Of a DNA stretch of 41,385 bases, positions 1 to 37,388 are shown piece after piece. A program made the position numbers and the translations under genes. The stretch lies in the IMG/VR virus record IMGVR_UViG_3300031951_000404; one strand, written 5' to 3'. Position 1 is the first letter of the stretch, and every line of letters starts with the position of its first letter. Below the pieces are notes generated by a model. The model had not been told where the DNA came from. It saw nothing but the letters and a program-made list of their open reading frames with translations, and did not search any database. The stretch comes from a virus.

Positions 1-127
1 CCTGTTCCGGCGTCATGCCGTAGCGGTCACGGTCTGCGGGCTTGCCCAACGGATAGCCGGGGCGTGTGGCAAGGGCTAGGGCGGTCATGCTGCTTCCCTT
101 TCTATTTCTGCGAGGGGGTCAAACCCG
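1..127. repeat. Terminal overlap copy 1, identical to 41259-41385 (circular contig closure or short terminal redundancy)
   Basis: Bases 1-127 (cctgttccggcgtcatgccg...gagggggtcaaacccg) recur base for base as the last 127 bases. When the ends are joined, the stop of ORF 85-510 overlaps the start of ORF 41047-41346 (ATGA). Confidence 0.95.
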
Positions 128-2568: not shown

Positions 2569-2942
2569 AAACCAAGCTGACCCTCGCAGCCCTTCCTCCG
2601 AGCGTCAACGCGATATGGCGTCACGGCAAAGGCGGCAAGACATACCGAACAGCGGCCTACATGACGTTTATTCGAGGAGAGGAATGGAACGTCCAGCCGC
2701 AGCTTATCAAGCAGCATCGCTTTCGCGGCCCGGTTTATGTGACAATCGCCATGAGGCGTCCGCGATCCAATGCGGACCTGGACAATCGCATCAAAGGCAT
2801 TCTGGACTTTTTGCAGCACGTTGCCGCGATAGACGATGACAAAAACGTATACGGCGTCAACGCATTTTGGACCGTTGACCTTCCTGCGGGCGTGGCTGCG
2901 GAAATATCCATTGTTCAGGCTGACGCGCTGGAGGCCGCATGA
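2565..2942 (+). CDS. rusA: RusA-family Holliday junction resolvase
   Basis: LPPSVNAIWRHG ... ADLDNRIKGILDFL ... IDDDKNV matches RusA motifs. An alternative GTG start exists at 2556. Confidence 0.85.
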   Translation: MKTKLTLAALPPSVNAIWRHGKGGKTYRTAAYMTFIRGEEWNVQPQLIKQHRFRGPVYVTIAMRRPRSNADLDNRIKGILDFLQHVAAIDDDKNVYGVNAFWTVDLPAGVAAEISIVQADALEAA

Positions 2943-3451
2943 ACTGGACCCCCGAAACCATTGACGAACTGATCCGCCTCTGGCGTCAGGGCCTCACGTC
3001 TTACCAGCTAGCCAAACATTTCAACACAACCCGCAATAGCATCATGGGCAAACTCCACCGCGAGAAACTGCGCCGCGCCACTCAGGGCGAACCGATAGAG
3101 CGCCGCACCATCGCCAATACCGGAACCATCACCAAACGACGCTACACACGGAGGGAAGCCATGTTGACTTTGCCTGAACGTGCCGGGTCTGTATTGCGTA
3201 TTGTAGAGCCTGCTCCCGTGGTACCAGATCAGGGGCAGCTTGCTAGCATCGTGGACGTGACCGGGTGTCGCTGGCCCGTGAAGGATGACCCGGAGTTTAT
3301 AGGCGGCTTTGCCTTCTGCAACCACGCCCAGCGGGACGGCTCGGCGTATTGCGAGTATCACGCCCGGATGAACGTCGCCCCGTGGAGCGCAGACGCCAAG
3401 CGGCGCACGGAAGCAACGATCAATTACATATTGAAGCGGGTGGCAGCATGA
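2939..3451 (+). CDS. gcrA: GcrA-like cell-cycle transcription regulator homologue
   Basis: The N-terminus WTPETIDELIRLWRQGLTSYQLAKHFNTTRNSIMGKLHR and the C-terminus CRWPVKDDPEFIGGFAFCNHAQRDGSAYCEYHA both match the GcrA family pattern. Confidence 0.85.
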   Translation: MNWTPETIDELIRLWRQGLTSYQLAKHFNTTRNSIMGKLHREKLRRATQGEPIERRTIANTGTITKRRYTRREAMLTLPERAGSVLRIVEPAPVVPDQGQLASIVDVTGCRWPVKDDPEFIGGFAFCNHAQRDGSAYCEYHARMNVAPWSADAKRRTEATINYILKRVAA

Positions 3452-4046: not shown

Positions 4047-4135
4047 GTACGGCAGCCTTTCTTCTCATAGCCGTGATTGCCGAGTGCGCCGTCCTGTGGC
4101 TGGCCTATTCAATGGGGAGGGACATGGCGCAATGA
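4043..4135 (+). CDS. Micro-ORF, 30-aa single-TM peptide MSTAAFLLIAVIAECAVLWLAYSMGRDMAQ
   Basis: Hand translation. There are ATGA overlaps at both ends (4043-4046 and 4132-4135). Confidence 0.35.
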   Translation: MSTAAFLLIAVIAECAVLWLAYSMGRDMAQ

Positions 4136-4902
4136 GCAGATGGTTCCGCATGTACTCAGACGTTCTGGACGATCCAAAGGTTCAGAAGCTCCCCGCCGAT
4201 TTGTTCAAGGCATGGGTCAACCTCCTATGCCTTGCCAGCCGCAATGATGGTGTGCTTCCCGCACTGGAAGACATCGCCTTCGCGCTCCGCATGTCACAAG
4301 ATGTCACTGTGACAGTCACAGCGGAGCTTGTGAAAAGGGGTTTGCTTGATGAGTGTGACGGGCTTTCGCCGCACAATTGGGCCGAACGCCAGTTCAAGAG
4401 CGACACGCCGGAAGATGCTAAAGAGCGGAAAAGAAAGCAACGGCAGCGCGAAAAACAGCAGCAAAACACCGATAATGTCACGGAATGTCACAGTGACAGT
4501 CACAACGAAGTCACGCCCCCAGAACAGAGCAGAACAGATACAGAGCAGAGCAGAGCAGAGCAGACGCCCGCGCGCACTCAAGACCCAAAGCATTGGGAAG
4601 AGGTCCAAGACTTTCTCAAACAGCCTGACAGCCTCACGGATTGGGAGGTCGACTTCCTGCACTCGGTCAAGTGGAAGCCGTCGCTGACCGAATTGCAGCG
4701 CGAAAGCCTCAAGGGCATTCGAGACAAGCTGCGCTCAACCACCAATGGCGGGTGCATCTTGCCGTCAGTGAAGCGCGGAACCCCGGCGTATGATGCCTGG
4801 ATTGCCCACTATCGCAAGACCAAGGGCAAGGCCACGTTTTACGAGAAACTGGACGCCCTCACCGTGCCATCTGAGTTCCCCCCACAGGAGCAAGCGGCGT
4901 GA
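4132..4902 (+). CDS. Replication initiation / replisome-organiser-like protein
   Basis: The N-terminus MSRWFRMYSDVLDDPKVQKLPADLFKAWVNLLCLAS...GVLP is typical of phage replisome-organiser / DUF1376-type winged-helix domains. The gene carries iteron clusters internally, as lambda O does. Confidence 0.55.
   Translation: MSRWFRMYSDVLDDPKVQKLPADLFKAWVNLLCLASRNDGVLPALEDIAFALRMSQDVTVTVTAELVKRGLLDECDGLSPHNWAERQFKSDTPEDAKERKRKQRQREKQQQNTDNVTECHSDSHNEVTPPEQSRTDTEQSRAEQTPARTQDPKHWEEVQDFLKQPDSLTDWEVDFLHSVKWKPSLTELQRESLKGIRDKLRSTTNGGCILPSVKRGTPAYDAWIAHYRKTKGKATFYEKLDALTVPSEFPPQEQAA
4291..4323. repeat. Iteron cluster A (candidate origin element)
   Basis: atGTCACaagatGTCACtGTGACaGTCACagcg. (A)TGTCAC starts 10 bp apart, with an inverted copy forming GTCAC-T-GTGAC. 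Confidence 0.6.
4474..4565. repeat. Iteron cluster B plus a purine-rich (CAGAG)n tract (candidate origin element)
   Basis: aatGTCACggaatGTCACaGTGACaGTCACaacgaaGTCACgcc, with copies spaced 10-13 bp. This is followed by an almost T-free tract ending in CAGAG x4 (4541-4564). Confidence 0.6.
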
Positions 4903-5579
4903 CAATTCACTATCACGGCACGCCCCTGACGCCGCGCGACCAGTTGTGGCTGATGGCGGGCAAGAGCTTTTGCGTGTCCTATGCCAACCCGCAGGATGCA
5001 GATATATGCCTGCGGATCGGGCAGTCCGTCATGTGGGATAACGGAGCGTTCAGCCTGCACACCAAGGGCAGGTCGGTAGATTGGACGGCTTATTATCGCT
5101 GGCTGGAACCACGCCTTGGTCATCCGCACTGGGCGGTCATCCCTGATGTAATTGACGGCGACGTTGAGGCCAACGCACAACTTGTAAAGGAATGGCCGTT
5201 CCGCCGCGAACTGGCCGCGCCAGTTTGGCATCTAGCCGAACCGCTGGATGTGCTGCTGGGGTTCGCCCAAGACTTTGGCCGGGTGTGCTTCGGCTCGTCT
5301 GGTGCCTATTGGCAGGTTGGTTCCGATGCCTGGAGCCGTCGCACAGACGAGGCGTTTAACGAGATGGCCCGCCGTGGGCCGTTGCCGTGGGTCCACATGC
5401 TGCGCGGTATGGCCGTAGCCGGGAAACGCTGGCCGTTTGCCTCGGTTGATAGCGTGAACGTGGCGCGAAATTTTAACTCGTCAAACCAGTGTCCCGAAGC
5501 GATGGCACGAGTAATTGACGCCGTTCAATGCCCAATCAAGTGGAAATATCAACCCCAGCAAATGGACCTTATTGCATGA
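4899..5579 (+). CDS. dpdA: DpdA-like DNA-guanine transglycosylase (TGT superfamily), putative
   Basis: 226 aa. GTG start overlapping the upstream stop (GTGA). The motif order MWDNGAFS ... AVIPDVI ... CFGSSG ... VHMLRG ... ASVDSVN recalls short phage DpdA/TGT-like TIM barrels (DSGGFQ-type catalytic Asp motif). Confidence 0.6.
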   Translation: MTIHYHGTPLTPRDQLWLMAGKSFCVSYANPQDADICLRIGQSVMWDNGAFSLHTKGRSVDWTAYYRWLEPRLGHPHWAVIPDVIDGDVEANAQLVKEWPFRRELAAPVWHLAEPLDVLLGFAQDFGRVCFGSSGAYWQVGSDAWSRRTDEAFNEMARRGPLPWVHMLRGMAVAGKRWPFASVDSVNVARNFNSSNQCPEAMARVIDAVQCPIKWKYQPQQMDLIA

Positions 5580-6097
5580 AATTCTTGGTCTTCCTCGCCT
5601 ATCTCGCCACGATCCCCGCCGCCAATTGGCTCATCGGCAATGTGGGCACCATGTGCATTCCCAACGGCCCCTGCCTGATTCCGGTGGCCCCCGGCCTCAT
5701 GGCCCCTTCTGGCGTCCTGATGATCGGCGCGGCGCTGGTGCTGCGGGACGCGGTGCAGCAGCTGCTTGGCATTCGATGGGCCTTCCTCGCCATCGCCTGT
5801 GGTGTGGTACTGTCCGTTCTGGTGGCCCCGCCTGCCTTGGTCATCGCCAGCGCCACAGCATTTGCAATTGCGGAATTGTTAGACCTTGGAGTCTACACAC
5901 CGCTCCGCAAGCGCAATCTCAGCCTCGCCGTGCTGGCCTCGGGTGTTGTGGGGGCGGCGGCTGACTCTGCGGTGTTCCTGTGGTTGGCGTTCGGTTCGCT
6001 CGACTTCATGGCGGGCCAGCTTGTCGGCAAACTGTGGATGACGATAGTTGCGGCGGGTGTGTTGGCGCTGGTGCACAATCGCACGGTGCGCGCCTGA
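5576..6097 (+). CDS. yhhQ: YhhQ/VUT-family (DUF165) membrane protein, putative preQ0/preQ1 transporter
   Basis: 173 aa and polytopic. LATIPAANWLIGNVG ... APSGVLMIGAALVLRD ... FAIAELLDLGVYTPLR ... DSAVF matches the queuosine-precursor transporter family pattern. ATGA-coupled to dpdA. Confidence 0.7.
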   Translation: MKFLVFLAYLATIPAANWLIGNVGTMCIPNGPCLIPVAPGLMAPSGVLMIGAALVLRDAVQQLLGIRWAFLAIACGVVLSVLVAPPALVIASATAFAIAELLDLGVYTPLRKRNLSLAVLASGVVGAAADSAVFLWLAFGSLDFMAGQLVGKLWMTIVAAGVLALVHNRTVRA

Positions 6098-6555
6098 TGT
6101 GGTTAGTCATCCGCACCGACCACGGCAAGGAAGCCTATGTAGCCCGACAGGTGATGTTCCGGGGCTGGGATGCCTGGGTTCCCGCGCAGATCATCGTCTG
6201 CCGCCCCGCCATCGCGCGCCGGGTGTCGGCCAAGTCGCACCTCCAGAAGACCAAGGAACTCGCCATCCTCCCCCGCCGAGTCTTTGCCGCCGTGCCTATG
6301 TGGGCAGTGCATCAGGCCGAACTAGACGGGCTGCGGCACATGATGGGCTTTGAACAAAATGCGGACCAGACGCTGGTCCAAATCAACGATGCGGAGATTA
6401 GCCGATTCCGGGGCGCAATCGACGCGGAGAACATGGCCGCGCTGGCGCTGGCGACCAAAGCCTCACGAAAGCAAAAACAACGCTGGCGTTCATTGCACGA
6501 TGCATTGCTAGACATGATTGAGGCGGCCAAGGGGCAGATGGAGCAGGCAGCATAA
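6097..6555 (+). CDS. NusG-like NGN-domain protein (no KOW), putative antiterminator
   Basis: MWLVIRTDHGKEAYVARQV ... AILPRRVFAAVP ... MGFEQN...VQINDAEISRF fits the NGN fold pattern. The C-terminus is a Lys/Gln-rich helix. TGATG overlap with the yhhQ stop. Confidence 0.55.
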   Translation: MWLVIRTDHGKEAYVARQVMFRGWDAWVPAQIIVCRPAIARRVSAKSHLQKTKELAILPRRVFAAVPMWAVHQAELDGLRHMMGFEQNADQTLVQINDAEISRFRGAIDAENMAALALATKASRKQKQRWRSLHDALLDMIEAAKGQMEQAA

Positions 6556-7091
6556 TGGGTGAGCGTCCTTCCGAATATGCCCGCGACAGCAATGATTGGT
6601 ACGTTGAGCCGGAATGGGCGGTTGAGGCTTTGAAAGCCCGCGTTCCGCTTATCGGCCAAATCCATGATCCGTGTTGCGGGATGGGTACGATTCCGCGCGT
6701 CATGGGCGGCACGGGTGCTGATCTGGTGGACCGGGGATATGGCTTCCCGCAGCGGGACTTTCTCAAGGACTTCGCAGCTTACGACAACATTGTCACCAAT
6801 CCGCCTTACGGCATTGCACAGCAGATCATTGAACACGCCTTGAGGACTGCCAAGTGGCGGGTTGCGGCGCTTGTCCAGGTGAAGTTTCTGGCCTCACAGC
6901 GCCGTCACGGCCTGTTCACGCGAGATGAAACAGAGAAGGTGCTGATGTTCAGCCGCCGCCCGTCCATGCCGCCCGGTGAAATTCTGGAAGAGAAGGGCGA
7001 AGACGTGCGCGGTGGAGGGTCAATAGACTTCTGTTGGATTGTGTGGTGCCGGGGCAATCTTGCGCCCACGGTTATTGATTGGGTGAAGTGA
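6555..7091 (+). CDS. Small SAM-dependent DNA methyltransferase (NPPY type, N6-A or N4-C)
   Basis: Motif I HDPCCGMGTI and motif IV VTNPPYG. 178 aa. TAATG overlap upstream. Confidence 0.8.
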   Translation: MGERPSEYARDSNDWYVEPEWAVEALKARVPLIGQIHDPCCGMGTIPRVMGGTGADLVDRGYGFPQRDFLKDFAAYDNIVTNPPYGIAQQIIEHALRTAKWRVAALVQVKFLASQRRHGLFTRDETEKVLMFSRRPSMPPGEILEEKGEDVRGGGSIDFCWIVWCRGNLAPTVIDWVK

Positions 7092-14896: not shown

Positions 14897-16801
14897 GTGG
14901 CTCAAGGTGATCTAAGAGGTAACCTTACAGCCTCAGTTGCCAGCGTAACCAACCCGACCAACCTCACCGGATCGGTGGCCGTCTCTGTTGGCGACCTGAT
15001 CTATGTTGCCTTCTCGCAACAGACCGCCCTCACCGCAACGTCTGCGTCTGACAACCTCGGCAACACTTACTCAGCGGTAAACGCTGGCACGGACGGAGGA
15101 ACGCCGACACACCGCGCGTTCTATGCCCGCGTTACGACTGCCGGAACGCTCACGACGATTTCAGTTGCGGCGACTGCATCAACGAACGATGCAAGCGCGG
15201 TTGCCGCCGTCATTGAGGGGCCATTTATGGTTGGCCCTCTCGACGCCAATCCGGCTAATACGACAGACGGCACAACGCCGTTTACATGCCCAGCAACGGG
15301 AACACTGGCGCAGGCCGAAGAAGTCATCATGGCTTCCATCGGCATCAACTCCAACCAGACGGTTGCCGCGTCATCACCGTTTACCCTTTCAGGGACCGTT
15401 GCCCGCGCGAACATTTCAACTGGCGTCAGTCGGCAGAAGGTCAGCGCCACCACGACGCAGACACCGGAATTTACCGGAACCACGGCGGCTGCAGTTCAGA
15501 CGACGGCGAGCTTCAAGCTCGCACGGCTGGTAACCGCCGACCCCGGAAGCTTTACCGTTTCGGGAACAGCGGCAAATTTGGAACATGGCCGCGAGATAGC
15601 GGCAGACGGCGGCAGCTATAGCATCACGGGCACAGATGCCACGCTTGTGGGGCGGCCCCCCGGCATTTTCGACACCGGGATTTTTGACACCGGGATTTTC
15701 GATCACCCGAGTGTCGCCAAGACATTATCCGCAGGGGCGGGTGCGTTTGCGTTCACTGGAACGGACGCAAGTTTAGAGCGTGGGTTTGAGGTTGCCGCAG
15801 GGGCGGGTGCGTTTGCGTTCACTGGAACGGACGCCAGCCTTGAATATGGGCGTGAGGTTGCGGGCGGCGCGGGCAGTTACGCGGTCACAGGCACCGACGC
15901 CAACCTTGAATACGGGCGTGAGGTTCTGGCGGGGGCTGGCTCCTACGCAGTCACCGGAACCGATGCGAACCTTGAGTTTGGCAGGGAAGTCCTGGCGGAT
16001 GCCGGGGCATTCGCTTTTACAGGAACAGACGCAAGCCTAGAGTACGGCTTTGAAGTCCTGGCGGGTGCCGGGTCGTATGCCTTCACTGGCGTTGACGCGG
16101 CGCTTGAATATGGCCGGGAATTGGCAGCGGGTGCTGGTTCCTATGCCTTCACGGGTACGGATGCCACGCTGCTTTATTCTGGCGGGGCAAAGGTTCTTGG
16201 GGCCGATGCTGGTTCCTATGCTTTCACTGGAACGGACGCGAACCTTGAATATGGCCGCGAGATAGCGGCAGACGCCGGGGCTTATGCCTACACGGGACAG
16301 GACGCGAACCTTGAATATGGCCGCGAGATTGCGGCAGACGCCGGGGCTTATGCCTACACGGGACAGGACGCAACCCTTACCTATGCCGCATCGGCCAAGG
16401 CAATCGTTGCCGAACCCGGCGCGTTCACCTTCACGGGCACGGACGCAACCCTAGAATACGCCGCCGCCAACCAGAACGTACCGCCCCCGCGGCGTTATGG
16501 CAGTGGGCAGTACGGCGAACCCGCGAAACTCATCCTGTCATGGATGCCGCAAAAGAAGCGGAAAAAGGACGAAAAGGCCAAGGTTGAGATTGTCGAGGAT
16601 GCAATTGAGCAGGCGCTTGAGGCCGCTCCGGTTGCCCTGCCAATCAACCCCGAACAGGTCGAACTCGCCGCAAGGCTACTTCTTGCCGAGTATGGCTTGG
16701 CAGAGCTTCGCCGGATCAAATACGCCGAAACGCTGTTGCTTCGCATTGAGCAAGTGATGGCTGAAATGGATGACGAGGAAGTGCTGCTTCTTGCAGCCTA
16801 A
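14897..16801 (+). CDS. Repeat-containing fibre-like protein (13 x 22-aa repeats)
   Basis: 634 aa, GTG start. The N-terminal domain resembles the two 216-aa paralogues. The centre has the consensus AGAGSYAFTGTDANLEYGREV. The C-terminus is a charged helix. Confidence 0.8.
   Translation: MAQGDLRGNLTASVASVTNPTNLTGSVAVSVGDLIYVAFSQQTALTATSASDNLGNTYSAVNAGTDGGTPTHRAFYARVTTAGTLTTISVAATASTNDASAVAAVIEGPFMVGPLDANPANTTDGTTPFTCPATGTLAQAEEVIMASIGINSNQTVAASSPFTLSGTVARANISTGVSRQKVSATTTQTPEFTGTTAAAVQTTASFKLARLVTADPGSFTVSGTAANLEHGREIAADGGSYSITGTDATLVGRPPGIFDTGIFDTGIFDHPSVAKTLSAGAGAFAFTGTDASLERGFEVAAGAGAFAFTGTDASLEYGREVAGGAGSYAVTGTDANLEYGREVLAGAGSYAVTGTDANLEFGREVLADAGAFAFTGTDASLEYGFEVLAGAGSYAFTGVDAALEYGRELAAGAGSYAFTGTDATLLYSGGAKVLGADAGSYAFTGTDANLEYGREIAADAGAYAYTGQDANLEYGREIAADAGAYAYTGQDATLTYAASAKAIVAEPGAFTFTGTDATLEYAAANQNVPPPRRYGSGQYGEPAKLILSWMPQKKRKKDEKAKVEIVEDAIEQALEAAPVALPINPEQVELAARLLLAEYGLAELRRIKYAETLLLRIEQVMAEMDDEEVLLLAA
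15536..16459 (+). repeat. Tandem 66-bp (22-codon) repeat array, about 13 units, with an embedded 15-bp x3 repeat (15662-15706, GIFDT x3)
   Basis: The period was measured on the sequence: aaccttgaat at 16241 and 16307, and at 15902 and 15968. Some neighbouring units are nearly identical at DNA level. Confidence 0.9.
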
Positions 16802-19458: not shown

Positions 19459-20925
19459 ATGCAGTTCGCTGACGTGATCGCTTCATTGCAAGAACGACAC
19501 ATGACCCTCACCAAGTCGGCCTCAACCGAGCACAATGAGTGGGAAAGTCTTGAAGCGGAATATCTGCACTGGCTCAACAAGTTTCCCGACAGGCCGGAAC
19601 TGCTGTTCCAGCTTGGCACCTACTACATGCAGCGCGACAAGCGCGGCCTCGCCATTGCCCTCATCGAACGGTCAGTGAATTGCGGCGCACTCGGCGCAGG
19701 GCCTTACCTCAACATCGCGGCGGCCTACAAGCAGGACCACAACGACGAAAAGGCGATGGAGTACTACAAGAAGGCGCTTGAGGAATCTGAAAAGAACCCG
19801 CCGCCGGGTTCGGTGAACAAGGACAAGGCATTCGCCCTTCACGGTATCGGAAGCATCTACGTCAATGCGGGCCAGCCCGCACTGTGCAAGCTGTGGAGCG
19901 AAAGGGCGCTTGCGGTTGATCCAGATGACCGCCACGCGATGTGGAACAAGGGCCTTGCTCACCTTGAACTCGGAGAGTGGGAAGAAGGCTTCCGCATCTA
20001 TGACACGGCTGGCTTCGACCCCGGCGGCATCATGCCAACGGAACGCAAGCTGAAGACCTACGGCGGCCTGCCCAAGTGGGACGGCACACCCGGACAGACG
20101 GTTGTAACCTACGGCGAACAGGGCGTTGGCGACGAAATCATGTTCGCGTCCATGATCCCCGACTTGATGAAGGACTGCAAGGTTATCATTGATTGCGACC
20201 ATCGCATTGAAAAGATGCTGAATCGGTCATTCCCCGAACTGGAAGCGGTCTATCCGACGAGCGATGTGAACGCGCCGTTCCCGTGGAAGGCAGACCACAA
20301 GATTGATGCTTATGTGCCGATGGGCAGCCTGGGCCGCCACTATCGCAAGAAGGCGGGGGACTTCCCGAAGGTGGCCTATCTCAAGGCGGACCCGGAGAAG
20401 ATTGAGATTTGGGGCCAGCATGTGGCCTCGCTGCCAAAGGGGCTCAACGTCGGTCTTTCGTGGGCTGGGGGCCTGAAGAAAACCCGCTTCGACAAGCGGA
20501 CCATCGTTCTGGACCATTTGCAGCCATTGCTTGAAACCAAGGGCGTCAATTTCATCAGCCTTCAGTATCACAAGTGGGCGGCTGACGAGGTTGCCCGCGT
20601 GGGAAGCCGGATCGGCGTTCCCATCTACCATTGGGGCGATGCGATTGCCGACTACGAGGACACGGCGGGGCTGCTGATGAACCTCGACCTTGTGATTACG
20701 GTCAACACCTCGCTGCATCATCTGGCCGGGTCGCTCGGCGTGAAACAGTGGTGCATGACCCCCGTCATGTGCGCGTGGCGGTATGGCGTGTCCGGGCCTT
20801 CGCCTTGGTACGGCAATTGCGAAATGTACCGCCAGAAGAAAGACGGCGAATGGAAGGGCGTTATCAAGCGCGCCGCTGACGATCTGGCGAAGATGGTGCA
20901 GGCATCAGAGAGGGTCGCGGCATGA
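19459..20925 (+). CDS. TPR-repeat + GT-B (GT9-like) glycosyltransferase, putative protein glycosyltransferase
   Basis: The N-terminal half has TPR-like repeats (AAAYKQDHNDEKAMEYYKKALE; WNKGLAHLELGEWEEGFRIYD). The C-terminal half has GEQGVGDEIMFASMIPDL, GLSWAGG and DLVITVNTSLHHLAGSLG. Confidence 0.7.
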   Translation: MQFADVIASLQERHMTLTKSASTEHNEWESLEAEYLHWLNKFPDRPELLFQLGTYYMQRDKRGLAIALIERSVNCGALGAGPYLNIAAAYKQDHNDEKAMEYYKKALEESEKNPPPGSVNKDKAFALHGIGSIYVNAGQPALCKLWSERALAVDPDDRHAMWNKGLAHLELGEWEEGFRIYDTAGFDPGGIMPTERKLKTYGGLPKWDGTPGQTVVTYGEQGVGDEIMFASMIPDLMKDCKVIIDCDHRIEKMLNRSFPELEAVYPTSDVNAPFPWKADHKIDAYVPMGSLGRHYRKKAGDFPKVAYLKADPEKIEIWGQHVASLPKGLNVGLSWAGGLKKTRFDKRTIVLDHLQPLLETKGVNFISLQYHKWAADEVARVGSRIGVPIYHWGDAIADYEDTAGLLMNLDLVITVNTSLHHLAGSLGVKQWCMTPVMCAWRYGVSGPSPWYGNCEMYRQKKDGEWKGVIKRAADDLAKMVQASERVAA

Positions 20926-21140
20926 ACGGCAACGTCTTCACGTTCCCCAACAAGGGAAAGATGACGGCAAATTCGGTCCTTGATGATGCGCGTGACAAGC
21001 TGGAGGACTGCATTGTCCTTGGCGTCACGAAGGAAGGGGATGCCTATTACAGTGTGTTCGCGCAAGACGCGGGGCAAGTCATCTTTCTACTCCGCGCACT
21101 TGAACACGTTGTACTCACACAGGAGTTGAGCGGCGAATGA
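20922..21140 (+). CDS. Hypothetical protein (72 aa) inside the glyco island
   Basis: ATGA overlaps at both ends. Confidence 0.55.
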   Translation: MNGNVFTFPNKGKMTANSVLDDARDKLEDCIVLGVTKEGDAYYSVFAQDAGQVIFLLRALEHVVLTQELSGE

Positions 21141-21652
21141 TGCTGATCACGCCAGAATATCGTGAACTGAACCGCAAGTTACATGCAACCAATCCCGTTT
21201 ATGGCGTCAGCGGGTTCCGTTATGTCGATGCTGCCAGGAGACTGTCTCAATGGGGCAGGCTTGACATTCTGGACTACGGATGCGGCAAGGCCGTCCTCGC
21301 AGAGAAGTTAGGCCCCGCATACCGCGTCACCAATTACGACCCTTGCATTGAAGGGCTTGACACGCCGCCCGAACCGCATGACGTGGTGATGTGCACCGAT
21401 GTCATGGAGCATGTTGAACCCGAGTTCATCATGCCCGTTCTGAAGGACATTCGGCGTCTGACGCGCGAATTTGCGTTCTTTGTCGTATCGACGGAGCCCG
21501 CGCAAAAGGTCCTAGAGGATGGCCGGAACGCCCACATTTCGCTTCATCCGCCGAAGTGGTGGCTGGAACGGATGGAAGAAGCAGGGTTTGAGGTGCTTGA
21601 GACGATTGACGATGACGGCAAGCACCTGACGTTCGGAGCCGTTTTGCGGTGA
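21137..21652 (+). CDS. Class I SAM-dependent methyltransferase
   Basis: Motif I LDILDYGCGKAVLA, and post-I/II VVMCTDVMEHVEPE. Confidence 0.75.
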   Translation: MMLITPEYRELNRKLHATNPVYGVSGFRYVDAARRLSQWGRLDILDYGCGKAVLAEKLGPAYRVTNYDPCIEGLDTPPEPHDVVMCTDVMEHVEPEFIMPVLKDIRRLTREFAFFVVSTEPAQKVLEDGRNAHISLHPPKWWLERMEEAGFEVLETIDDDGKHLTFGAVLR

Positions 21653-22323
21653 TGGACGGCGACCTGAAAGCGGCATGGAAGCTGCTTGTTAAAAACGGAT
21701 ACCAGTTCTATCGCAACAAGATATGGAAGGAAGACCCGCAGTTCGTGGCCGTTCGCCAGAAGGTCAAGGACATAGGGATTAGCGGGATACCGGATGACCG
21801 TTGTTTTTTCCTTCTTGAGGCGGCGCGGAAACTGACGGTTCCCGGCGATGTGGTGGAATGCGGCGTGAGGTTCGGACGCTCAACCTACTACATCGCCAGC
21901 GGCACGGATCGCGGGATTGAGGTATTTGACTCATTTGAGGGGCTTTCGGCACCATCTGAGGAAGATGGCGACAGTTGGAAGGCGGGCGATTGCCTCGCAT
22001 CCCTTGACGAGTTTGAAGCAAACCTTGACGAGTTCGCGCACCGCATATCGGTTCACAAGGGTTGGATACCCGACACGCTGAAGGAATGCAGGGCAACGCA
22101 GATTGCGCTGCTTCACCTGGACCTTGACTTGTATGGGCCGACACTGGCGGCGCTGACCTATTTCTGGCCCCGCGTGGCAAGGGGCGGGTTTGTGATCTGC
22201 GACGATTACGGCTCGACGCTCTGCCCCGGAGCGAAGGCCGCATTTGACGAGTTCTTTGCCGGCAAAACGGAAAAACCGCTGGGGTTGCCTAGCGCACAAT
22301 GCATCGTGACGAAACTCAACTGA
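21649..22323 (+). CDS. TylF/MycF-family (macrocin-type) sugar O-methyltransferase
   Basis: VECGVRFGRST, FDSFEGL, LLHLDLDLYGPTLAAL and GGFVICDDYG are TylF-family hallmarks. Confidence 0.8.
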   Translation: MMDGDLKAAWKLLVKNGYQFYRNKIWKEDPQFVAVRQKVKDIGISGIPDDRCFFLLEAARKLTVPGDVVECGVRFGRSTYYIASGTDRGIEVFDSFEGLSAPSEEDGDSWKAGDCLASLDEFEANLDEFAHRISVHKGWIPDTLKECRATQIALLHLDLDLYGPTLAALTYFWPRVARGGFVICDDYGSTLCPGAKAAFDEFFAGKTEKPLGLPSAQCIVTKLN

Positions 22324-22334
22324 AAGGACACCAC

Positions 22335-23108
22335 TTGTACAAGGCGCTGACGAGAGCGGACATTCTCAACGTATGGATTGGCTATGACAGCCGTGAGCCC
22401 GAAGCCTTTGAGGTTCTGAAGGCATCCATCCTGAAGCACGCCACGATGGCAGTGAATATCCAGAAGCTTGATGAACGCGCCTTGCGCCATGCGGGCCTCT
22501 ACCGCCGCACATGGCAGGCTGACGGGTGCCAGAAGGTGGACAAGATCGACGGCAAGCCCTTCAGCACGGAGTTTTCGTTCACGCGGTTCCTGGTGCCTGC
22601 GCTTCAGCAGTGGGAAGGCTGGGGGCTCTTCGTAGATTGCGACCAATTGTTCCTGACGGACATTGCCGAAATGCTGCACGAAATGGACCCGGCGAAAGCG
22701 GTTCAGGTGTGCCAACAGAACTATCAGCCGACCGAAGGGCTGAAGATGGATGGCCAGAAACAGGAGCGTTACTACCGCAAGAACTGGTCAAGCGTGATGC
22801 TGTTCAACTGCGCGCATCCGTCAAATCGCTGGCTGACGCCGGATGTGGTGAACGCGGAACCCGGCTCATGGCTGCATGGTTTTGGGTGGCTGCCGGATGG
22901 CGATATTGGCGAGTTAGATCATGGGTGGAATTGGATTGCGGATTGCACAAAGGTAAAGCCGAAGAACGTACATTTTACCTTGGGCGCATGTTGGTTTCCT
23001 CATCTTCGCCACGCTGATCAGCCATACTTTGAAGAATGGCGGCAAGCAGCCAAAGAGATTGGCGTGTGGCGTCATATGTGTGAAAAACAGGACAAGCAAA
23101 CTGCATGA
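22335..23108 (+). CDS. GT-A fold (GT8-like) glycosyltransferase
   Basis: FSFTRFLVP, the DxD motif LFVDCDQLF, and KNWSSVMLFNC ... LHGFGWL ... WNW. A TTG start at 22335 is preferred (AAGGA 7 nt upstream). The track ORF starts at 22299 inside the previous gene. Confidence 0.65.
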   Translation: MYKALTRADILNVWIGYDSREPEAFEVLKASILKHATMAVNIQKLDERALRHAGLYRRTWQADGCQKVDKIDGKPFSTEFSFTRFLVPALQQWEGWGLFVDCDQLFLTDIAEMLHEMDPAKAVQVCQQNYQPTEGLKMDGQKQERYYRKNWSSVMLFNCAHPSNRWLTPDVVNAEPGSWLHGFGWLPDGDIGELDHGWNWIADCTKVKPKNVHFTLGACWFPHLRHADQPYFEEWRQAAKEIGVWRHMCEKQDKQTA

Positions 23109-34339: not shown

Positions 34340-35356
34340 ATGCCTAAGCGATATTCTGATGAGGAATTTATCAGCGCATGGAAGCGGCTCGGTTCACCGA
34401 AAAGCGTTGCAGATGCGTTACAGCTTGATCTGCGCAGCGTCTACCTACGGCGGAACAGCATCGAAGCACGGCACGGCATCGTTCTTGAAACACTGACGGA
34501 AGGCTGCGGCGGAAGGCCAAAGGTCACGGTTCCCAAGCAAGGCTTTCGCGCCATATCCGACAATATCAAGGGAACGGTCATCATCGGGTCAGACGGCCAT
34601 TTCTGGCCAGGAGAGCGCAGTGTAGCCTTTGCCGCGATGGTGGAGTTAATCCGCGAACTTTCCCCGAAAATGGTCATTATGAACGGCGACAGCTTCGACG
34701 GAGCCCGCATTTCCCGGCACCTTCCCGGCGGGTGGGCCAACATGCCAGACGTTGCCGACGAACTGGACGCGGTGCGGGAACGCCACGGCGAGATTGAGGC
34801 GGTTGCCCCTGCCGGGTGTCCACTGATCTGGCCCGCCGGGAACCACGATAGCCGTTTCGGTGCGAGGCTTGCCCAAGGGGCTCCTGAATATATCCGCGTC
34901 AAGGGCTTCGACATTGCCGACCATTTCCCGGCGTGGCAATTCTGCTGGTCGATCTGGCTGAACAATCACACGGTTGTGAAGCACCGATACCACCAAGGGC
35001 TACACGCCGGATACCAGAACACGCTCAAGAGCGGAAAGAACATCGTCACCGGGCACACTCATTCGATGGGCTCGACCATGTGGGCGGATTACAATGGCGT
35101 CCGCTGGGGCGTGCAGACCGGGACGCTCTCCGAGATGGGGCCGGAAACGGACAAGTTCGCCTATGCGGAGGATAATCCGGCAAACCACTCGCAGGGCTGT
35201 GCAATTTTGACCTTTGCAGACAACGGAATGTTGCTGGAGCCTGAGTTCTGTCGCGTCATCAACGGGACGGCATATTTCCGTGGGCAAGCCATCTGTTCCG
35301 TGGGCGGAAAAAACAAAATATTGCCGCAAAAGGCTGCTAGGGAAAAGGCGGCATGA
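34340..35356 (+). CDS. Calcineurin-like metallophosphoesterase with N-terminal HTH-like segment
   Basis: All five motifs are in order: SDGH, NGDSFDG, AGNHDS, KHRYH, TGHTHS. Confidence 0.8.
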   Translation: MPKRYSDEEFISAWKRLGSPKSVADALQLDLRSVYLRRNSIEARHGIVLETLTEGCGGRPKVTVPKQGFRAISDNIKGTVIIGSDGHFWPGERSVAFAAMVELIRELSPKMVIMNGDSFDGARISRHLPGGWANMPDVADELDAVRERHGEIEAVAPAGCPLIWPAGNHDSRFGARLAQGAPEYIRVKGFDIADHFPAWQFCWSIWLNNHTVVKHRYHQGLHAGYQNTLKSGKNIVTGHTHSMGSTMWADYNGVRWGVQTGTLSEMGPETDKFAYAEDNPANHSQGCAILTFADNGMLLEPEFCRVINGTAYFRGQAICSVGGKNKILPQKAAREKAA

Positions 35357-35787
35357 GCATCATTCCCGCGCCTCCGCTAGTGATTGTTGAATCACCATTC
35401 CGCGCGACGGAATACTATTCTCAAGAGCAACATCGCCTATACCTCCTGCACGCCCTTGCCGACTGTTACCAGCGCGGAGAGGCACCATTCGCAAGCCACC
35501 ATCTCGCAACCGAAGTGCTGGACGATGACACGCCATACGAACGTGCGCTCGGCATCCGCTGCGGGCTTGCATGGGGCGTCCACGCCTCGCTAGTGGCTAT
35601 CTACAGTGACCTCGGCGTAGGACCAGGAATGAAGGAAGCAATCGACCATTATAAAAAGCTCGACAAACCGATTGAGTGGCGTTCGTTGCCGGATCGGATA
35701 GTCAGGGCTGTTCGCGCATTCGGGGAGTTCACACTAGAGGAAGCCACGGATGAAGATATGGATTATCCTAGCGGCGCTGCTGTTTAG
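35353..35787 (+). CDS. DUF4406 / nucleoside 2-deoxyribosyltransferase-like protein (tentative)
   Basis: VIVESPFRA...APFASHHL...DDD...SLVAIYSDLGVGPGMKEAI resembles the Rossmann-like DUF4406 pattern. ATGA overlap. Confidence 0.4.
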   Translation: MSIIPAPPLVIVESPFRATEYYSQEQHRLYLLHALADCYQRGEAPFASHHLATEVLDDDTPYERALGIRCGLAWGVHASLVAIYSDLGVGPGMKEAIDHYKKLDKPIEWRSLPDRIVRAVRAFGEFTLEEATDEDMDYPSGAAV

Positions 35788-36119: not shown

Positions 36120-37388
36120 ATGCAGATACATCGCGGCGATTGCCTAGACGTTCTCCGCACCATGCCAGCGGATAGCATTGACGCCATTGTGACCGATCCG
36201 CCCTATGGCCTCGCGTTCATGGGCAAGAGATGGGATTATGACGTTCCGTCCGTGGAGATATGGGCGGAATGTCTGCGAGTTCTGAAGCCGGGTGGGCATC
36301 TACTGGCCTTTGCTGGCACGCGGACGCAACACCGGATGGCGGTCCGCATTGAAGACGCGGGCTTTGAAATTCGCGACATGATCGCGTGGGTTTATGGCAG
36401 CGGGTTTCCGAAGTCGCACGACGCGGCGCAATCCGTCGAGAAGCTTCTCACTACCGGAACGGCGCGGCGGCCCGATAGAGACCTCGGCGGGCTTCCGCGT
36501 GACAGATGGTCCGGTTCCGTTGAGGGCGGTCTTATTGCAGACACGGGCGGAAAAATTGGACTCACAACCGACGCCGCCCGCCAATGGCAAGGCTGGGGCA
36601 CAGCCCTAAAACCCGCACTAGAGCCGATCACCGTTGCCCGAAAACCGCTCATCGGCACCGTGGCCGAGAACGTGCTGGCGCATGGCACGGGTGCGCTGAA
36701 TATCGACGGGTGCAGGGTGGAGGGCGCGCCGCCAAGTGTTCCGCAGCCGGTTTTCAACAGCCCGACAGGTCGCACATACGGCATGAAAACGGGCGAAGGT
36801 CGAAATGGCGAAGTGTCCGCAGCATCTGGCCGCTGGCCTGCCAACCTGATCCACGACGGCAGCGAGGAAGTGCTGGCGGGGTTTCCTGCGGCACGGAGTG
36901 CGGGGAACTATCCTAGCGACAGCGCGGCGCGCGACGGCATTACGACTTTCGGTGGCAAGCAGGGCCAGCTTTATGCTGACTCCGGCAGCGCGGCCCGTTT
37001 CTTCTACTGCGCCAAGGCAAGCAAGCGGGACCGTGACGAGGGGCTGGAGCACATGCAGGCCGTGCACCGTGTCAACGGCAACAAGTGGACAGATCAAGAC
37101 TACCGCGTAACCAATGGCGAGCGCCCGGCATCCGCTGAATCCGGCCCGCGCAAGAACATCCATCCCACGGTAAAACCCACCGACCTGATGCGCTACCTGT
37201 GCCGCCTTGTCACCCCGCCCGGCGGCGTGGTGCTTGACCCGTTCATGGGTTCCGGATCGACAGGCAAGGCGGCGGTGCTTGAAGACTTCCGGTTTATCGG
37301 CATTGAGCGGGAAAAACAATATTTGGCAATCGCCAAGGCGCGAATTGCGCACAGTCAGGCCACTCCAAAGCAAGAGGCGCTATTGTGA
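36120..37388 (+). CDS. DNA methyltransferase, N4/N6 beta-class (DPPY)
   Basis: IVTDPPYGL near the N-terminus. HPTVKPTDLMRYLCRLVTPPGGVVLDPFMGSGSTGKAA near the C-terminus. 422 aa with a large central insert. Confidence 0.9.
   Translation: MQIHRGDCLDVLRTMPADSIDAIVTDPPYGLAFMGKRWDYDVPSVEIWAECLRVLKPGGHLLAFAGTRTQHRMAVRIEDAGFEIRDMIAWVYGSGFPKSHDAAQSVEKLLTTGTARRPDRDLGGLPRDRWSGSVEGGLIADTGGKIGLTTDAARQWQGWGTALKPALEPITVARKPLIGTVAENVLAHGTGALNIDGCRVEGAPPSVPQPVFNSPTGRTYGMKTGEGRNGEVSAASGRWPANLIHDGSEEVLAGFPAARSAGNYPSDSAARDGITTFGGKQGQLYADSGSAARFFYCAKASKRDRDEGLEHMQAVHRVNGNKWTDQDYRVTNGERPASAESGPRKNIHPTVKPTDLMRYLCRLVTPPGGVVLDPFMGSGSTGKAAVLEDFRFIGIEREKQYLAIAKARIAHSQATPKQEALL

What the first reader, a model, noticed from the sequence alone, without database searches (positions are those of the whole stretch)
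4899..6097. Minimal 'import and insert' 7-deazaguanine module: DpdA-like transglycosylase coupled to a YhhQ-type preQ0 transporter, with no biosynthesis genes
The ORF at 4899-5579 has a GTG start overlapping the replication-gene stop. It encodes 226 aa. Its motif order (MWDNGAFS, AVIPDVI, CFGSSG, VHMLRG, ASVDSVN) fits the short, zinc-less DpdA branch of the tRNA-guanine transglycosylase superfamily. That enzyme exchanges guanine in DNA for preQ0-type 7-deazaguanines.

The ATGA-coupled next gene (5576-6097) is a polytopic YhhQ/VUT (DUF165) protein. This is the family of the queuosine-precursor salvage transporter.

The whole genome is in view and lacks folE, queD, queE and queC. The phage would therefore rely on host-made or imported base. 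A virus installing its own precursor importer in the host membrane is unusual.

Together with the two DNA methyltransferases (6555-7091, 36120-37388), this is a heavy investment in DNA-modification anti-restriction.
Basis: partly seen in the sequence, partly recalled or inferred. Interest (0 to 1): 0.65.

Follow-up and report, generated by a model that had tools for sequence, protein, structure and literature searches.

The report
Phage DpdA–YhhQ deazaguanine salvage gene pair
This complete phage genome carries a small DNA base-swapping enzyme (DpdA family) fused in an operon to a small membrane importer (YhhQ/VUT family) and has no genes to make the modified base itself; the components and the idea are already known from other phages, so it is a sound but fairly ordinary find.

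Summary
ORFs 4899-5579 (226 aa, GTG) and 5576-6097 (173 aa, ATG) exist, overlap by GTGA/ATGA, and contain the quoted motifs.

The first is a DpdA-family enzyme. It falls in phrog_887 with experimentally validated CAjan DpdA, and a family profile matches CAjan DpdA at 98.5% (E 2.5e-15). It models as an eight-stranded barrel with invariant D83, H111, G132, H166, D184 (D47 nearly so) at strand ends. Its nearest structural neighbours are phage DpdAs.

The second is a short VUT/YhhQ protein. It passes Pfam Vut_1 gathering and shares phrog_4899 with CAjan's yhhQ product.

The window is a complete genome (127-bp terminal repeat). It has no FolE, QueD, QueE, QueC or QueF.

The novelty claim is overstated. 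DpdA-only phages, phage YhhQ homologs and host-derived or salvaged preQ0 were described in 2017-2021, and deleting yhhQ in CAjan had no effect.

One point may be new. In this subfamily the pair is nearly obligate: 79 of 80 viral loci, both gene orders, never with biosynthesis genes. Some relatives lacking VUT carry QueD instead.

DNA modification and transport remain inferred. Verdict: new member of a known kind, with modest interest.

The parts
4084..4902 (+). Replication initiator / DnaD-like helicase-loader gene. It is the first gene of the translationally coupled run, and its TGA stop overlaps the GTG start of the next gene.
   Evidence: phrog_3926 at 1e-15 and phrog_10469 at 2e-12; junction sequence.
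4899..5579 (+). DpdA-family (TGT-superfamily) transglycosylase, 226 aa, short form without a Zn subdomain. It is predicted to exchange guanine in DNA for a 7-deazaguanine base.
   Evidence: phrog_887 at 2e-41, the same PHROG as validated CAjan DpdA and as MED16 DpdA. hhalign of family profile A3 against CAjan DpdA: 98.5%, E 2.5e-15. AF2 pLDDT 83, eight beta/alpha units. Best structural neighbours in BFVD are phage DpdAs.
5037..5051 (+). D47-N-G-A-F51 motif at the end of strand beta3. Predicted general acid/base Asp plus base-stacking Phe, equivalent to Asp95/Phe99 of S. Montevideo DpdA.
   Evidence: D47, G49 and A50 are at least 90% conserved across 69 diverse homologs. The motif aligns with CAjan LDSGAFS. 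Residue roles come from PMC10164549.
5145..5147 (+). D83 (IPDVI), just after strand beta4. Candidate base-recognition Asp, equivalent to Asp130 of S. Montevideo DpdA.
   Evidence: Invariant in A3. The spacing D47 to D83 (36 residues) matches Asp95 to Asp130 (35 residues). However, hhalign places CAjan's Asp 3 residues later, so the equivalence is inferred.
5229..5231 (+). H111 (VWH) at the end of strand beta5. Candidate equivalent of His181 of S. Montevideo DpdA.
   Evidence: Invariant in A3; aligned with CAjan CFHF.
5448..5453 (+). D184-S185 (VDS) in strand beta8. Predicted covalent nucleophile Asp, equivalent to Asp256 of S. Montevideo DpdA.
   Evidence: D184 is invariant and S185 at least 90% conserved. 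It aligns with CAjan CDSS. The PADLOC bacterial DpdA model matches CAjan residues 147-209, a stretch that includes the IGGM (residues 152-155) and CDSS (residues 205-208) motifs seen in the CAjan sequence.
5576..6097 (+). Short VUT/YhhQ-family (DUF165, COG1738) polytopic membrane protein, 173 aa. Predicted importer of preQ0-type 7-deazaguanine bases. Its ATG overlaps the dpdA stop (ATGA).
   Evidence: Pfam Vut_1 at 40.2 bits, above the gathering score of 27.2. phrog_4899 at 5e-38, the same PHROG as CAjan's yhhQ product. hhalign: 97% to CAjan gp41, and 89% to E. coli YhhQ over the C-terminal half. AF2 pLDDT 83 with six helices.
6097..6555 (+). NusG-like putative antiterminator gene, coupled to the VUT gene by a TGATG overlap (context).
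   Evidence: phrog_6386 at 3e-7; Pfam NusG at 19 bits, below its cutoff; junction.
6555..7091 (+). DNA methyltransferase with an NPPY motif, the last gene of the coupled run. The same dpdA-VUT...MTase arrangement is seen in Rhizobium phage RHph_N3_2.
   Evidence: phrog_799 at 1e-46; RHph_N3_2 neighbourhood.
36120..37388 (+). Second DNA methyltransferase, N6/N4 class with a DPPY motif (context only).
   Evidence: Pfam N6_N4_Mtase at 1.9e-33.

Best explanation
The two genes form a self-contained salvage-to-DNA module of the phage 7-deazaguanine modification system.

The 226-aa protein is a minimal DpdA-family transglycosylase. It is a TIM barrel whose D47 (acid/base), D83 and H111 (base recognition) and D184 (nucleophile) would excise guanine from double-stranded phage DNA after replication. 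It would then install a 7-deazaguanine base through a covalent enzyme-DNA intermediate, as shown for bacterial DpdA.

The phage makes no preQ0. The base must therefore come from the host's queuosine pathway, from outside the cell, or from both.

The co-translated 173-aa VUT/YhhQ-type permease is inserted in the host inner membrane and raises the intracellular pool of preQ0-type base by import.

The expected product is dPreQ0 and/or dADG on a small fraction of G residues. It would add to the adenine/cytosine methylation supplied by the two phage methyltransferases.

Shown here: gene structure, family membership, fold, residue conservation, absence of biosynthesis genes, and near-obligate linkage of the two genes.

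Inferred: the DNA substrate, the identity of the base, the direction and substrate of transport, and any protective effect.
For: Identity of the enzyme:
- phrog_887 at 2e-41. CAjan DpdA, whose deletion abolishes dPreQ0 (PMC7544227), and MED16 DpdA, from a phage with dADG in its DNA (PMC8306585), fall in the same PHROG.
- Profile A3 against CAjan DpdA: 98.5%, E 2.5e-15, 159 columns. It pairs D47, H111, G132, H166 and D184 with CAjan's motifs.
- AF2 pLDDT 83, pTM 0.81, eight beta/alpha units, with the conserved residues at the C-terminal ends of the strands.
- The top BFVD neighbours are phage 'queuine tRNA-ribosyltransferases' at E 1e-8 to 1e-5 and TM 0.54-0.69.

Identity of the permease:
- Pfam Vut_1 above gathering.
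- phrog_4899, shared with CAjan's yhhQ product.
- hhalign 97% and 89%.
- Six-helix model.
- N17, D58 and D130 are shared with E. coli YhhQ.

No biosynthesis genes: in a complete genome.

Functional linkage:
- VUT is adjacent on the same strand in 79 of 80 IMG/VR loci. The one exception is truncated by a contig end. Both gene orders occur, 56 downstream and 23 upstream.
- VUT is adjacent in 10 of 14 bacterial-genome loci.
- The pair also occurs in unrelated isolates: Drexlerviridae Opt-719, Casjensviridae RHph_X2_30, Tbat1_6, Pam5 and RHph_N3_2.
- There are no FolE/QueD/QueC/QueE homologs in 902 kb of flanks.
- In three relatives that lack VUT, the neighbour is QueD/PTPS instead. This is a second, independent association with the 7-deazaguanine pathway.

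Host:
- The host signal (GcrA) and prophage relatives in Rhizobiales point to hosts of a group in which S. meliloti is known to synthesise queuosine (PMC3568095).

Operon:
- The genes lie in a translationally coupled replication/DNA-modification operon, with no internal signals above background.
Against: - No Pfam TGT or NCBIfam hit for the enzyme. None of 69 family members hits Pfam TGT. CAjan DpdA does not hit it either.
- HMMER profiles find no TGT or DpdA among PDB sequences.
- hhalign against E. coli TGT is negative.
- Foldseek against the PDB returns only generic TIM barrels (E about 1e-3, TM about 0.5), with no TGT or DpdA in the top 50.
- The PADLOC bacterial DpdA model does not hit the protein.
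- The D83 equivalence is ambiguous in the CAjan alignment.
- The permease scores below the NCBIfam equivalog cutoffs: 35.9 against 50.95 for TIGR00697. Only its C-terminal half aligns with E. coli YhhQ.
- No short phage VUT has been shown to transport anything. Deleting CAjan yhhQ left modification unchanged (PMC7544227).
- DpdA-only phages vary. MED16 has only about 0.13% of its G residues modified, with little effect on restriction (PMC8306585). Mycobacterium phage Orion has no modification (PMC6884629).
Confidence: 0.6

Rival explanations
1. Same proteins, different base. The pair salvages and inserts a 7-deazaguanine other than preQ0, for example preQ1, queuine, CDG or 7-deazaguanine itself. 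Alternatively the inserted preQ0 ends up as dADG through an unknown step. The chemistry of the modification would then differ from the reader's 'preQ0' proposal.
For: - DpdA-only phages 7-11 and MED16 contain dADG rather than dPreQ0, by an unexplained route (PMC8306585).
- DpdA subfamilies differ in substrate (PMC10516641).
- The permease falls below the 'queuosine precursor transporter' equivalog cutoffs.
- It is a distinct short clade, phrog_4899, annotated as 'unknown function'.
- From my own knowledge, not checked here: VUT-family members transport preQ0, preQ1 or queuine depending on the organism.
Against: The only validated member of phrog_887 (CAjan) inserts preQ0 (PMC7544227). 9g DpdA expressed alone yields dPreQ0 in plasmid DNA (PMC6884629). 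Nothing in the sequence discriminates between substrates.
Confidence: 0.2
2. The transglycosylase works on host-made preQ0 alone, and the VUT protein is dispensable for DNA modification. Under this view it is a conditional accessory that matters only when the host pool is limiting, or it has another membrane role.
For: Deleting yhhQ in CAjan gave wild-type modification (PMC7544227). The likely hosts (Rhizobiales) belong to a group in which S. meliloti synthesises queuosine de novo (PMC3568095). DpdA-only relatives without VUT exist: MED16, SfI, L017 and L021.
Against: CAjan makes its own preQ0, so its yhhQ result does not transfer to a phage without biosynthesis genes. Adjacency in 79 of 79 evaluable loci of this subfamily, preserved through a gene-order swap, argues for strong selection on the pair. 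Replacement of VUT by QueD in relatives suggests that a supply gene is needed.
Confidence: 0.15
3. The enzyme acts on RNA (tRNA) rather than DNA, as the database name 'queuine tRNA-ribosyltransferase' implies. The pair would then manipulate queuosine status and translation during infection.
For: The database annotation of phrog_887. The TGT superfamily ancestrally acts on tRNA. Hutinet 2019 proposed that phages with the preQ0 pathway but no DpdA may boost host queuosine.
Against: The characterised members of the family act on DNA, namely CAjan and 9g. The protein lacks the Zn subdomain and C-terminal extension, which I recall (not checked here) contribute to tRNA binding in TGTs. The phage has no tRNA genes. 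The gene sits between a replication initiator and a DNA methyltransferase. The host presumably has its own TGT.
Confidence: 0.05

Closest known systems
Escherichia phage CAjan 7-deazaguanine cluster (Queuovirinae): folE-queD-yhhQ-queC-queE plus dpdA
   Same: Both window proteins fall in the same PHROGs as CAjan's DpdA (phrog_887) and its yhhQ product (phrog_4899). The enzyme's family profile matches CAjan DpdA at 98.5%, and the catalytic motifs align. The permease is 32% identical to CAjan gp41 over its full length, and both are short forms of 159-173 aa.
   Different: CAjan has all four preQ0 synthesis genes, and the window has none. CAjan DpdA is 306 aa with a C-terminal extension, against 226 aa here. 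In CAjan the two genes are not adjacent, whereas here they overlap by ATGA.
DpdA-only phages (group 3 of Hutinet et al. 2019, 76 phages), e.g. Salmonella phage 7-11 and Pantoea phage MED16
   Same: They have DpdA with no preQ0/G+ synthesis genes and are proposed to depend on host preQ0 or on uptake (PMC6884629). MED16 DpdA is 38% identical to the window protein and is in phrog_887.
   Different: MED16 has no VUT gene next to dpdA. The 2019 survey reported no correlation between YhhQ and any phage group. In the window's subfamily the linkage is nearly absolute.
Deposited isolates with the same two-gene pair: Rhizobium phages RHph_N3_2 and RHph_X2_30, Pseudanabaena phage Pam5, Escherichia phages vB_EcoD_Opt-719/Phleasolo/Sadiya, Flyfo siphovirus Tbat1_6
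   Same: They have a DpdA-like gene (37-53% identical) next to a VUT/DUF165 gene. RHph_N3_2 shares the dpdA-VUT-...-MTase order.
   Different: Gene order is reversed in Opt-719, Tbat1_6 and X2_30. The virion types and hosts differ. The pair is annotated as 'hypothetical' plus 'VUT/DUF165' and is not discussed in the Pam5 paper.
Bacterial Dpd system DpdA (S. Montevideo; crystal structure and mechanism in PMC10164549)
   Same: TIM-barrel transglycosylase with a D-x-x-x-F motif, a second Asp about 35 residues later, a His, a Gly-rich strand and a nucleophile Asp. The spacing of D47/F51/D83 and of G132 to D184 mirrors Asp95/Phe99/Asp130 and Gly206 to Asp256.
   Different: Bacterial DpdA is much larger (PADLOC model of 417 positions) and has a Zn site and the large Ins8 insertion. 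Its exchange assays were run with the DpdB ATPase, and it is part of a restriction-modification island. The PADLOC DpdA model does not hit the window protein, and no DpdB or DpdC is present.
E. coli YhhQ (COG1738; preQ0/preQ1 importer)
   Same: Pfam Vut_1 family. It shares N17, P36, D58, G65, A91-S92, D130 and F134, and it is a polytopic membrane protein.
   Different: YhhQ is 221 aa against 173 aa here. The phage form lacks the N-terminal approximately 11 residues, an internal loop of about 20 residues and the C-terminal tail. Only residues 88-139 are pairwise similar, at 36%. It scores below the NCBIfam equivalog cutoffs.

Membership tests
DpdA (DNA 7-deazaguanine transglycosylase, TGT superfamily) | Detectable homology to an experimentally validated DpdA | tested here: met
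   Same PHROG (887) as CAjan DpdA: 2e-41 against 8e-96. hhalign of A3 against CAjan DpdA: 98.5%, E 2.5e-15, 159 columns. tblastn of CAjan DpdA against the window: E 5e-4 at the DxGAF motif.
DpdA (DNA 7-deazaguanine transglycosylase, TGT superfamily) | (beta/alpha)8 TIM-barrel catalytic domain | tested here: met
   AF2 pLDDT 83.1, pTM 0.81, with eight strands alternating with helices. Foldseek hits are TIM barrels and phage DpdA models.
DpdA (DNA 7-deazaguanine transglycosylase, TGT superfamily) | Acid/base Asp with a stacking aromatic four residues later, and a nucleophile Asp on beta8 (Asp95/Phe99/Asp256 of S. Montevideo DpdA) | tested here: met
   D47-N-G-A-F51 is at least 90% conserved and D184 is invariant in 69 diverse homologs. 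Both align to CAjan LDSGAFS and CDSS. The mapping to the crystal structure rests on motif, spacing and a transitive PADLOC match, not on 3D superposition.
DpdA (DNA 7-deazaguanine transglycosylase, TGT superfamily) | Base-recognition Asp and His (Asp130/His181) | tested here: inconclusive
   D83 and H111 are invariant, and H111 aligns with CAjan's His. D83 aligns with a Ser in CAjan, whose Asp lies 3 residues later.
DpdA (DNA 7-deazaguanine transglycosylase, TGT superfamily) | Closest solved structures are TGT or DpdA | tested here: not met
DpdA (DNA 7-deazaguanine transglycosylase, TGT superfamily) | Structural Zn site (Cys cluster plus His) after beta8 | tested here: not met
   No CxCxxC motif, and the protein ends 42 residues after D184. 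CAjan DpdA also shows no such Cys cluster in its sequence, so this feature defines TGT and bacterial DpdA rather than that phage DpdA.
DpdA (DNA 7-deazaguanine transglycosylase, TGT superfamily) | Match to Pfam TGT (PF01702) | tested here: not met
   No hit for the protein or for any of 69 homologs. The control shows this is uninformative: validated CAjan DpdA does not hit it either, while E. coli TGT hits at 2.8e-168.
DpdA (DNA 7-deazaguanine transglycosylase, TGT superfamily) | Guanine to 7-deazaguanine exchange in DNA | not testable with these tools
   Needs LC-MS/MS of virion or plasmid DNA.
YhhQ / VUT (COG1738, Pfam PF02592) queuosine-precursor transporter | Pfam Vut_1 above the gathering score | tested here: met
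   40.2 bits against a cutoff of 27.2. Only residues 81-162 align to profile positions 61-148. Almost all of the 120 listed close homologs carry a precomputed PF02592 annotation.
YhhQ / VUT (COG1738, Pfam PF02592) queuosine-precursor transporter | NCBIfam equivalog cutoffs (TIGR00697, PRK11212) | tested here: not met
   35.9 against 50.95, and 23.5 against 252.
YhhQ / VUT (COG1738, Pfam PF02592) queuosine-precursor transporter | Polytopic alpha-helical membrane protein | tested here: met
   AF2 pLDDT 82.6 with six helices and one hairpin. Five hydrophobic regions by hydropathy.
YhhQ / VUT (COG1738, Pfam PF02592) queuosine-precursor transporter | Transport of preQ0/preQ1 | not testable with these tools
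   No short phage VUT has been assayed. Deleting CAjan yhhQ gave no phenotype (PMC7544227).
Complete phage preQ0/G+ modification cluster (Queuovirinae type) | folE, queD, queE and queC (with or without gat-queC, queF, arcS) encoded with dpdA | tested here: not met
   None in the complete genome, and none in 902 kb around 80 related loci.
Bacterial Dpd restriction-modification island | DpdA together with DpdB, DpdC and DpdD-K | tested here: not met
   PADLOC gave no hits for the protein or its four neighbours. The element is a phage genome (portal, capsid and amidase).

The most novel reading that the evidence does not exclude
In this abundant alphaproteobacterial-phage subfamily, the minimal DpdA and a dedicated short permease form an obligate, mobile two-gene 'salvage-to-DNA' cassette. 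The linkage holds in 79 of 79 evaluable loci, occurs in both gene orders, and never includes biosynthesis genes. In some relatives the cassette is replaced by DpdA plus QueD.

If the permease is truly required, this would be a phage DNA hypermodification whose level is set by the availability of environmental or host 7-deazaguanine. The short VUT clade (phrog_4899, annotated 'unknown function') would be the first virus-encoded nucleobase importer with a demonstrated role. The 2019 statement that YhhQ shows no correlation with any phage group would also need revising.
Probability: 0.25. Interest if true: 0.5.

Novelty: new member of a known kind. Interest (0 to 1): 0.3.

Why it matters
Phage 7-deazaguanine DNA modifications blunt restriction enzymes and Cas9, and they are themselves targeted by newly found host glycosylases. 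Knowing which phages carry them matters for phage therapy, host-range prediction and sequencing artefacts.

This window adds one more complete genome to the known 'DpdA without biosynthesis' class. The useful increment is the survey around it:

- It identifies a large environmental subfamily: 827 clusters at 50% identity and at least 415 IMG/VR contigs.
- In that subfamily DpdA is almost always fused in an operon to a short VUT permease.
- It gives a compact two-gene construct that makes a long-assumed but untested idea directly testable, namely that phages import preQ0 to modify DNA.

Without wet-lab data the finding does not change current understanding.

Tried and rejected
- HMMER profiles of the enzyme family against PDB sequences found only chance hits: narrow profile A1 and broad profile A3. 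phmmer with CAjan DpdA against the PDB found nothing.
- Pfam and NCBIfam on the enzyme gave no family. Pfam on 69 homologs gave none.
- hhalign against a single E. coli TGT sequence was negative with both profiles.
- Foldseek against the PDB returned only generic TIM barrels. I rejected the reading that this refutes TGT-superfamily membership, for three reasons. CAjan DpdA fails the sequence-based versions of these tests (Pfam TGT; PDB phmmer). Predicted phage DpdA structures are the best matches. TGT and bacterial DpdA carry large insertions.
- PADLOC DpdA models gave no hit.
- The search for related loci with the broad alignment A3 failed because no stretch was conserved enough. I repeated it with A1.
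- The VUT profile against PDB sequences found nothing.
- Considered and rejected: a spurious ORF in high-GC sequence. The protein has thousands of conserved homologs with conserved start positions.
- Considered and rejected: a holin-like or other lysis role for the membrane protein. The amidase (endolysin-like) gene lies about 31 kb away at 37585-38085, and the Vut_1 match exceeds the gathering score.
- The search for an integrase in the window by Pfam was negative, so the lifestyle was left open.


Full report
**1. Observation**

The window is a terminally redundant, complete phage genome. Its first 127 bases recur exactly at its end, giving a unit of 41,258 bp at 58% G+C.

The two ORFs are as described. 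One runs 4899-5579 (+, GTG, 226 aa) and the other 5576-6097 (+, ATG, 173 aa). They belong to a run of five translationally coupled genes:
- a replication initiator (4084-4902),
- the 226-aa ORF,
- the 173-aa ORF,
- a NusG-like gene (6097-6555),
- a DNA methyltransferase (6555-7091).

The junctions read GTGA, ATGA, TGATG and TAATG. A consensus scan finds no internal promoter-like or terminator-like sites above the shuffled background.

All five quoted motifs are present. Both start codons are supported by conserved N-termini in homologs.

**2. The 226-aa protein**

Pfam and NCBIfam give no hit. PHROGs places it in phrog_887, 'queuine tRNA-ribosyltransferase', at 2e-41.

The same PHROG contains two informative proteins. 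One is CAjan DpdA, whose deletion abolishes dPreQ0 in phage DNA (PMC7544227). The other is MED16 DpdA, from a DpdA-only phage whose DNA contains dADG (PMC8306585).

tblastn against deposited phages finds 107 records. The best are Pseudanabaena phage Pam5 at 53% identity, Rhizobium phages at 47-52%, and MED16 at 38%.

The family is large. There are 3,829 clusters at 90% identity and 827 clusters at 50% identity.

A diverse alignment of 69 members, down to 30% identity to the query, leaves D83, H111, G132, H166 and D184 invariant. D47, G49, A50, P82, I85, R169 and S185 are at least 90% conserved.

That profile matches CAjan DpdA with 98.5% probability (E 2.5e-15, 159 columns). It pairs MWDNGAFS with LDSGAFS, VWH with CFH, FGSS with IGGM, VHMLRG with LHAFG, and VDS with CDS.

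The AlphaFold model is confident (pLDDT 83, pTM 0.81). It shows eight beta-strands alternating with helices, and every conserved residue sits at or just after a strand's C-terminal end, which is the catalytic face of a TIM barrel.

Against predicted viral structures, the best matches after one close homolog include phage 'queuine tRNA-ribosyltransferases' (Mufasa8, Megan, Tinciduntsolum, Sulfolobales Beppu rod-shaped virus 1, Dinoroseobacter phage R5C). They score E 1e-8 to 1e-5 with TM 0.54-0.69.

The crystallographic study of S. Montevideo DpdA assigns Asp95 as acid/base, Phe99 as the stacking residue, Asp130 and His181 to base recognition, and Asp256 as the nucleophile (PMC10164549). The spacings D47-F51-D83 and G132-D184 in the window protein mirror Asp95-Phe99-Asp130 and Gly206-Asp256. 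The PADLOC bacterial DpdA model weakly matches CAjan residues 147-209, a stretch that includes its GGM and CDSS motifs, which gives a transitive chain.

I therefore assign D47, D83, H111 and D184 as the active site. The assignment rests on alignment and spacing, not on superposition.

**3. Negative results for the enzyme**

These should be stated plainly.
- HMMER profiles do not reach any TGT or DpdA in the PDB.
- hhalign against E. coli TGT is negative.
- No family member hits Pfam TGT.
- The PADLOC DpdA model does not hit the protein.
- Foldseek against the PDB lists only generic TIM barrels.

A control shows the Pfam test is uninformative. Validated CAjan DpdA also fails Pfam TGT, while E. 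coli TGT scores 2.8e-168.

The protein has no CxCxxC zinc motif and ends 42 residues after D184. CAjan DpdA also shows no such cluster in its sequence.

The protein is thus a minimal member of the phage DpdA family. It is clearly homologous to validated phage DpdAs and only remotely related to tRNA TGTs.

**4. The 173-aa protein**

- It exceeds the Pfam Vut_1 gathering score (40.2 against 27.2), though only over its C-terminal half.
- It falls below the NCBIfam equivalog cutoffs for the queuosine-precursor transporter.
- It belongs to phrog_4899, annotated 'unknown function'. CAjan's yhhQ product and the VUT of coliphage Opt-719 are in the same PHROG.
- Profile comparison gives 97% (E 5e-11) to CAjan gp41, and 89% (E 2e-6) to E. 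coli YhhQ.
- The model (pLDDT 83) has six helices and one hairpin.

Phage VUTs of 158-175 aa align with one another over their full length. Relative to E. coli YhhQ they lack a short N-terminal stretch, an internal loop and the C-terminal tail. They share N17, P36, D58, G65, A91-S92, D130 and F134 with it.

This is a short phage clade of the VUT family. Transport has not been demonstrated for any member of it.

**5. No biosynthesis genes**

Pfam scans of the ORFs found ERF, RusA, GcrA, a P22-type portal, a capsid protein, methyltransferases, an HNH nuclease, an amidase and others. They found no GTP cyclohydrolase I, PTPS, QueC, QueE or QueF.

A six-frame tblastn with CAjan FolE/QueD/QueC/QueE and DMCA QueD gave nothing better than E = 0.1.

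**6. Linkage**

The same protein recurs on several metagenomic contigs in the identical arrangement.

In bacterial genomes the gene occurs in prophages, mostly of Rhizobiales: Agrobacterium, Ensifer, Devosia, Rhizobium, Shinella and Bradyrhizobium. VUT is adjacent in 10 of these 14 loci. One relative lies beside an integrase on an 88-kb contig.

Among the 80 best of 415 IMG/VR loci (58-85% identity), VUT is adjacent on the same strand in 79. The exception is cut off by a contig end. VUT lies downstream in 56 loci and upstream in 23.

No FolE, QueD, QueC or QueE homolog occurs in the 902 kb of flanking sequence.

More distant pairs occur in unrelated isolates, some with reversed gene order: Opt-719 (Drexlerviridae), RHph_X2_30 (Casjensviridae) and Tbat1_6.

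In three relatives that lack VUT, the neighbouring gene is QueD/PTPS: Caulobacter phage DMCA, a Bradyrhizobium prophage and a Polaromonas contig.

Two different 7-deazaguanine-pathway genes therefore associate with this enzyme family. That is independent support for its assignment.

**7. Mechanism**

This part is inferred. The enzyme would exchange G in phage DNA for a 7-deazaguanine base drawn from the host's queuosine pathway, from import through the co-expressed permease, or from both.

The GcrA homolog and the Rhizobiales prophages point to an alphaproteobacterial host. S. meliloti, a member of that group, is known to synthesise queuosine (PMC3568095).

By analogy with MED16 and 7-11, the product may be low-level dADG and/or dPreQ0.

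**8. Comparison with the literature**

- Hutinet 2019 defined 76 DpdA-only phages. [quoted passage not shown]
- Hutinet 2017 had already suggested that salvaged preQ0 could enter DNA, because yhhQ sits in some dpd clusters (PMC5699537).
- CAjan encodes yhhQ, and its deletion did not alter modification.
- Haloviruses carry YhhQ or DpdA alone.

The anti-restriction value is also unproven, since MED16's dADG had minimal effect.

The one point I did not find in the searched literature is the near-obligate coupling within this subfamily, together with the QueD alternative. The Pam5 paper does not mention either gene.

**9. Verdict**

The finding is a correct identification of a known kind of system. 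It adds a modest comparative-genomic observation and a clean experimental handle.

Noticed in passing
L003:5708-6004 (Caulobacter phage DMCA); L020:4633-5058 (Bradyrhizobium sp. Ai1a-2 prophage); L023:1424-1855 (Polaromonas MAG contig): In relatives of the DpdA-like gene that lack an adjacent VUT gene, the neighbouring gene is a QueD/PTPS homolog (Pfam PF01242 at 1e-4, 1.4e-30 and 5.6e-19). The enzyme therefore seems to travel with one single 'supply' gene, either VUT or QueD. What a lone QueD would achieve is unclear.
   Followed up: partly
window 40503-40725: A tandem array of 37 copies of the hexamer CCGTAG (87% matches). It lies in a poorly coding stretch of about 2 kb near the circular junction. 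Its function is unknown; it could be an origin, a packaging site or a regulatory region.
   Followed up: no
window 2939-3451 and 36120-37388: The phage encodes a GcrA cell-cycle-regulator homolog (Pfam 1.3e-20) and a 422-aa N6/N4 DNA methyltransferase. This combination is reminiscent of the alphaproteobacterial GcrA/CcrM circuit and gives a strong hint about the host.
   Followed up: partly
window 19459-23108: A cluster sits between the capsid gene and later structural genes. It comprises a TPR-repeat protein (488 aa), a Methyltransf_23 protein, a TylF-like O-methyltransferase and a 269-aa protein with no Pfam hit. It looks like a small-molecule or glycan-modifying cassette, which is unexpected inside a structural module.
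   Followed up: no
window 14897-16801: A 634-aa protein built from about 22-residue repeats (AGAGSYAFTGTDANLEYGRE), encoded by 66-bp tandem DNA repeats at 15729-16375. It has no Pfam hit and is probably a fibre or decoration protein.
   Followed up: no
window, whole: Pfam detected no integrase and ARAGORN found no tRNA gene, although close relatives of the module sit in prophages (an integrase in L004, and an attR annotated in RHph_N3_2). The lifestyle of this phage is unresolved.
   Followed up: partly
window 1-127 and 41259-41385: An exact 127-bp direct terminal repeat. It is probably the assembly overlap of a circular or circularly permuted genome, so the window is a complete genome of 41,258 bp.
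   Followed up: yes
L011 (MAG 'Gammaproteobacteria bacterium Cca_21', 39.6-kb contig) and L012 (MAG 'Candidatus Saccharibacteria', 1.3-kb contig): The two closest 'genome' hits to the module (72-73% identity) lie on phage-sized or tiny contigs binned into taxonomically unrelated MAGs. These are probably binning artefacts rather than evidence of host range.
   Followed up: no
window 35353-35787: A DUF7768 protein (Pfam 7.6e-19) lies just upstream of the second DNA methyltransferase. Its function is unknown.
   Followed up: no
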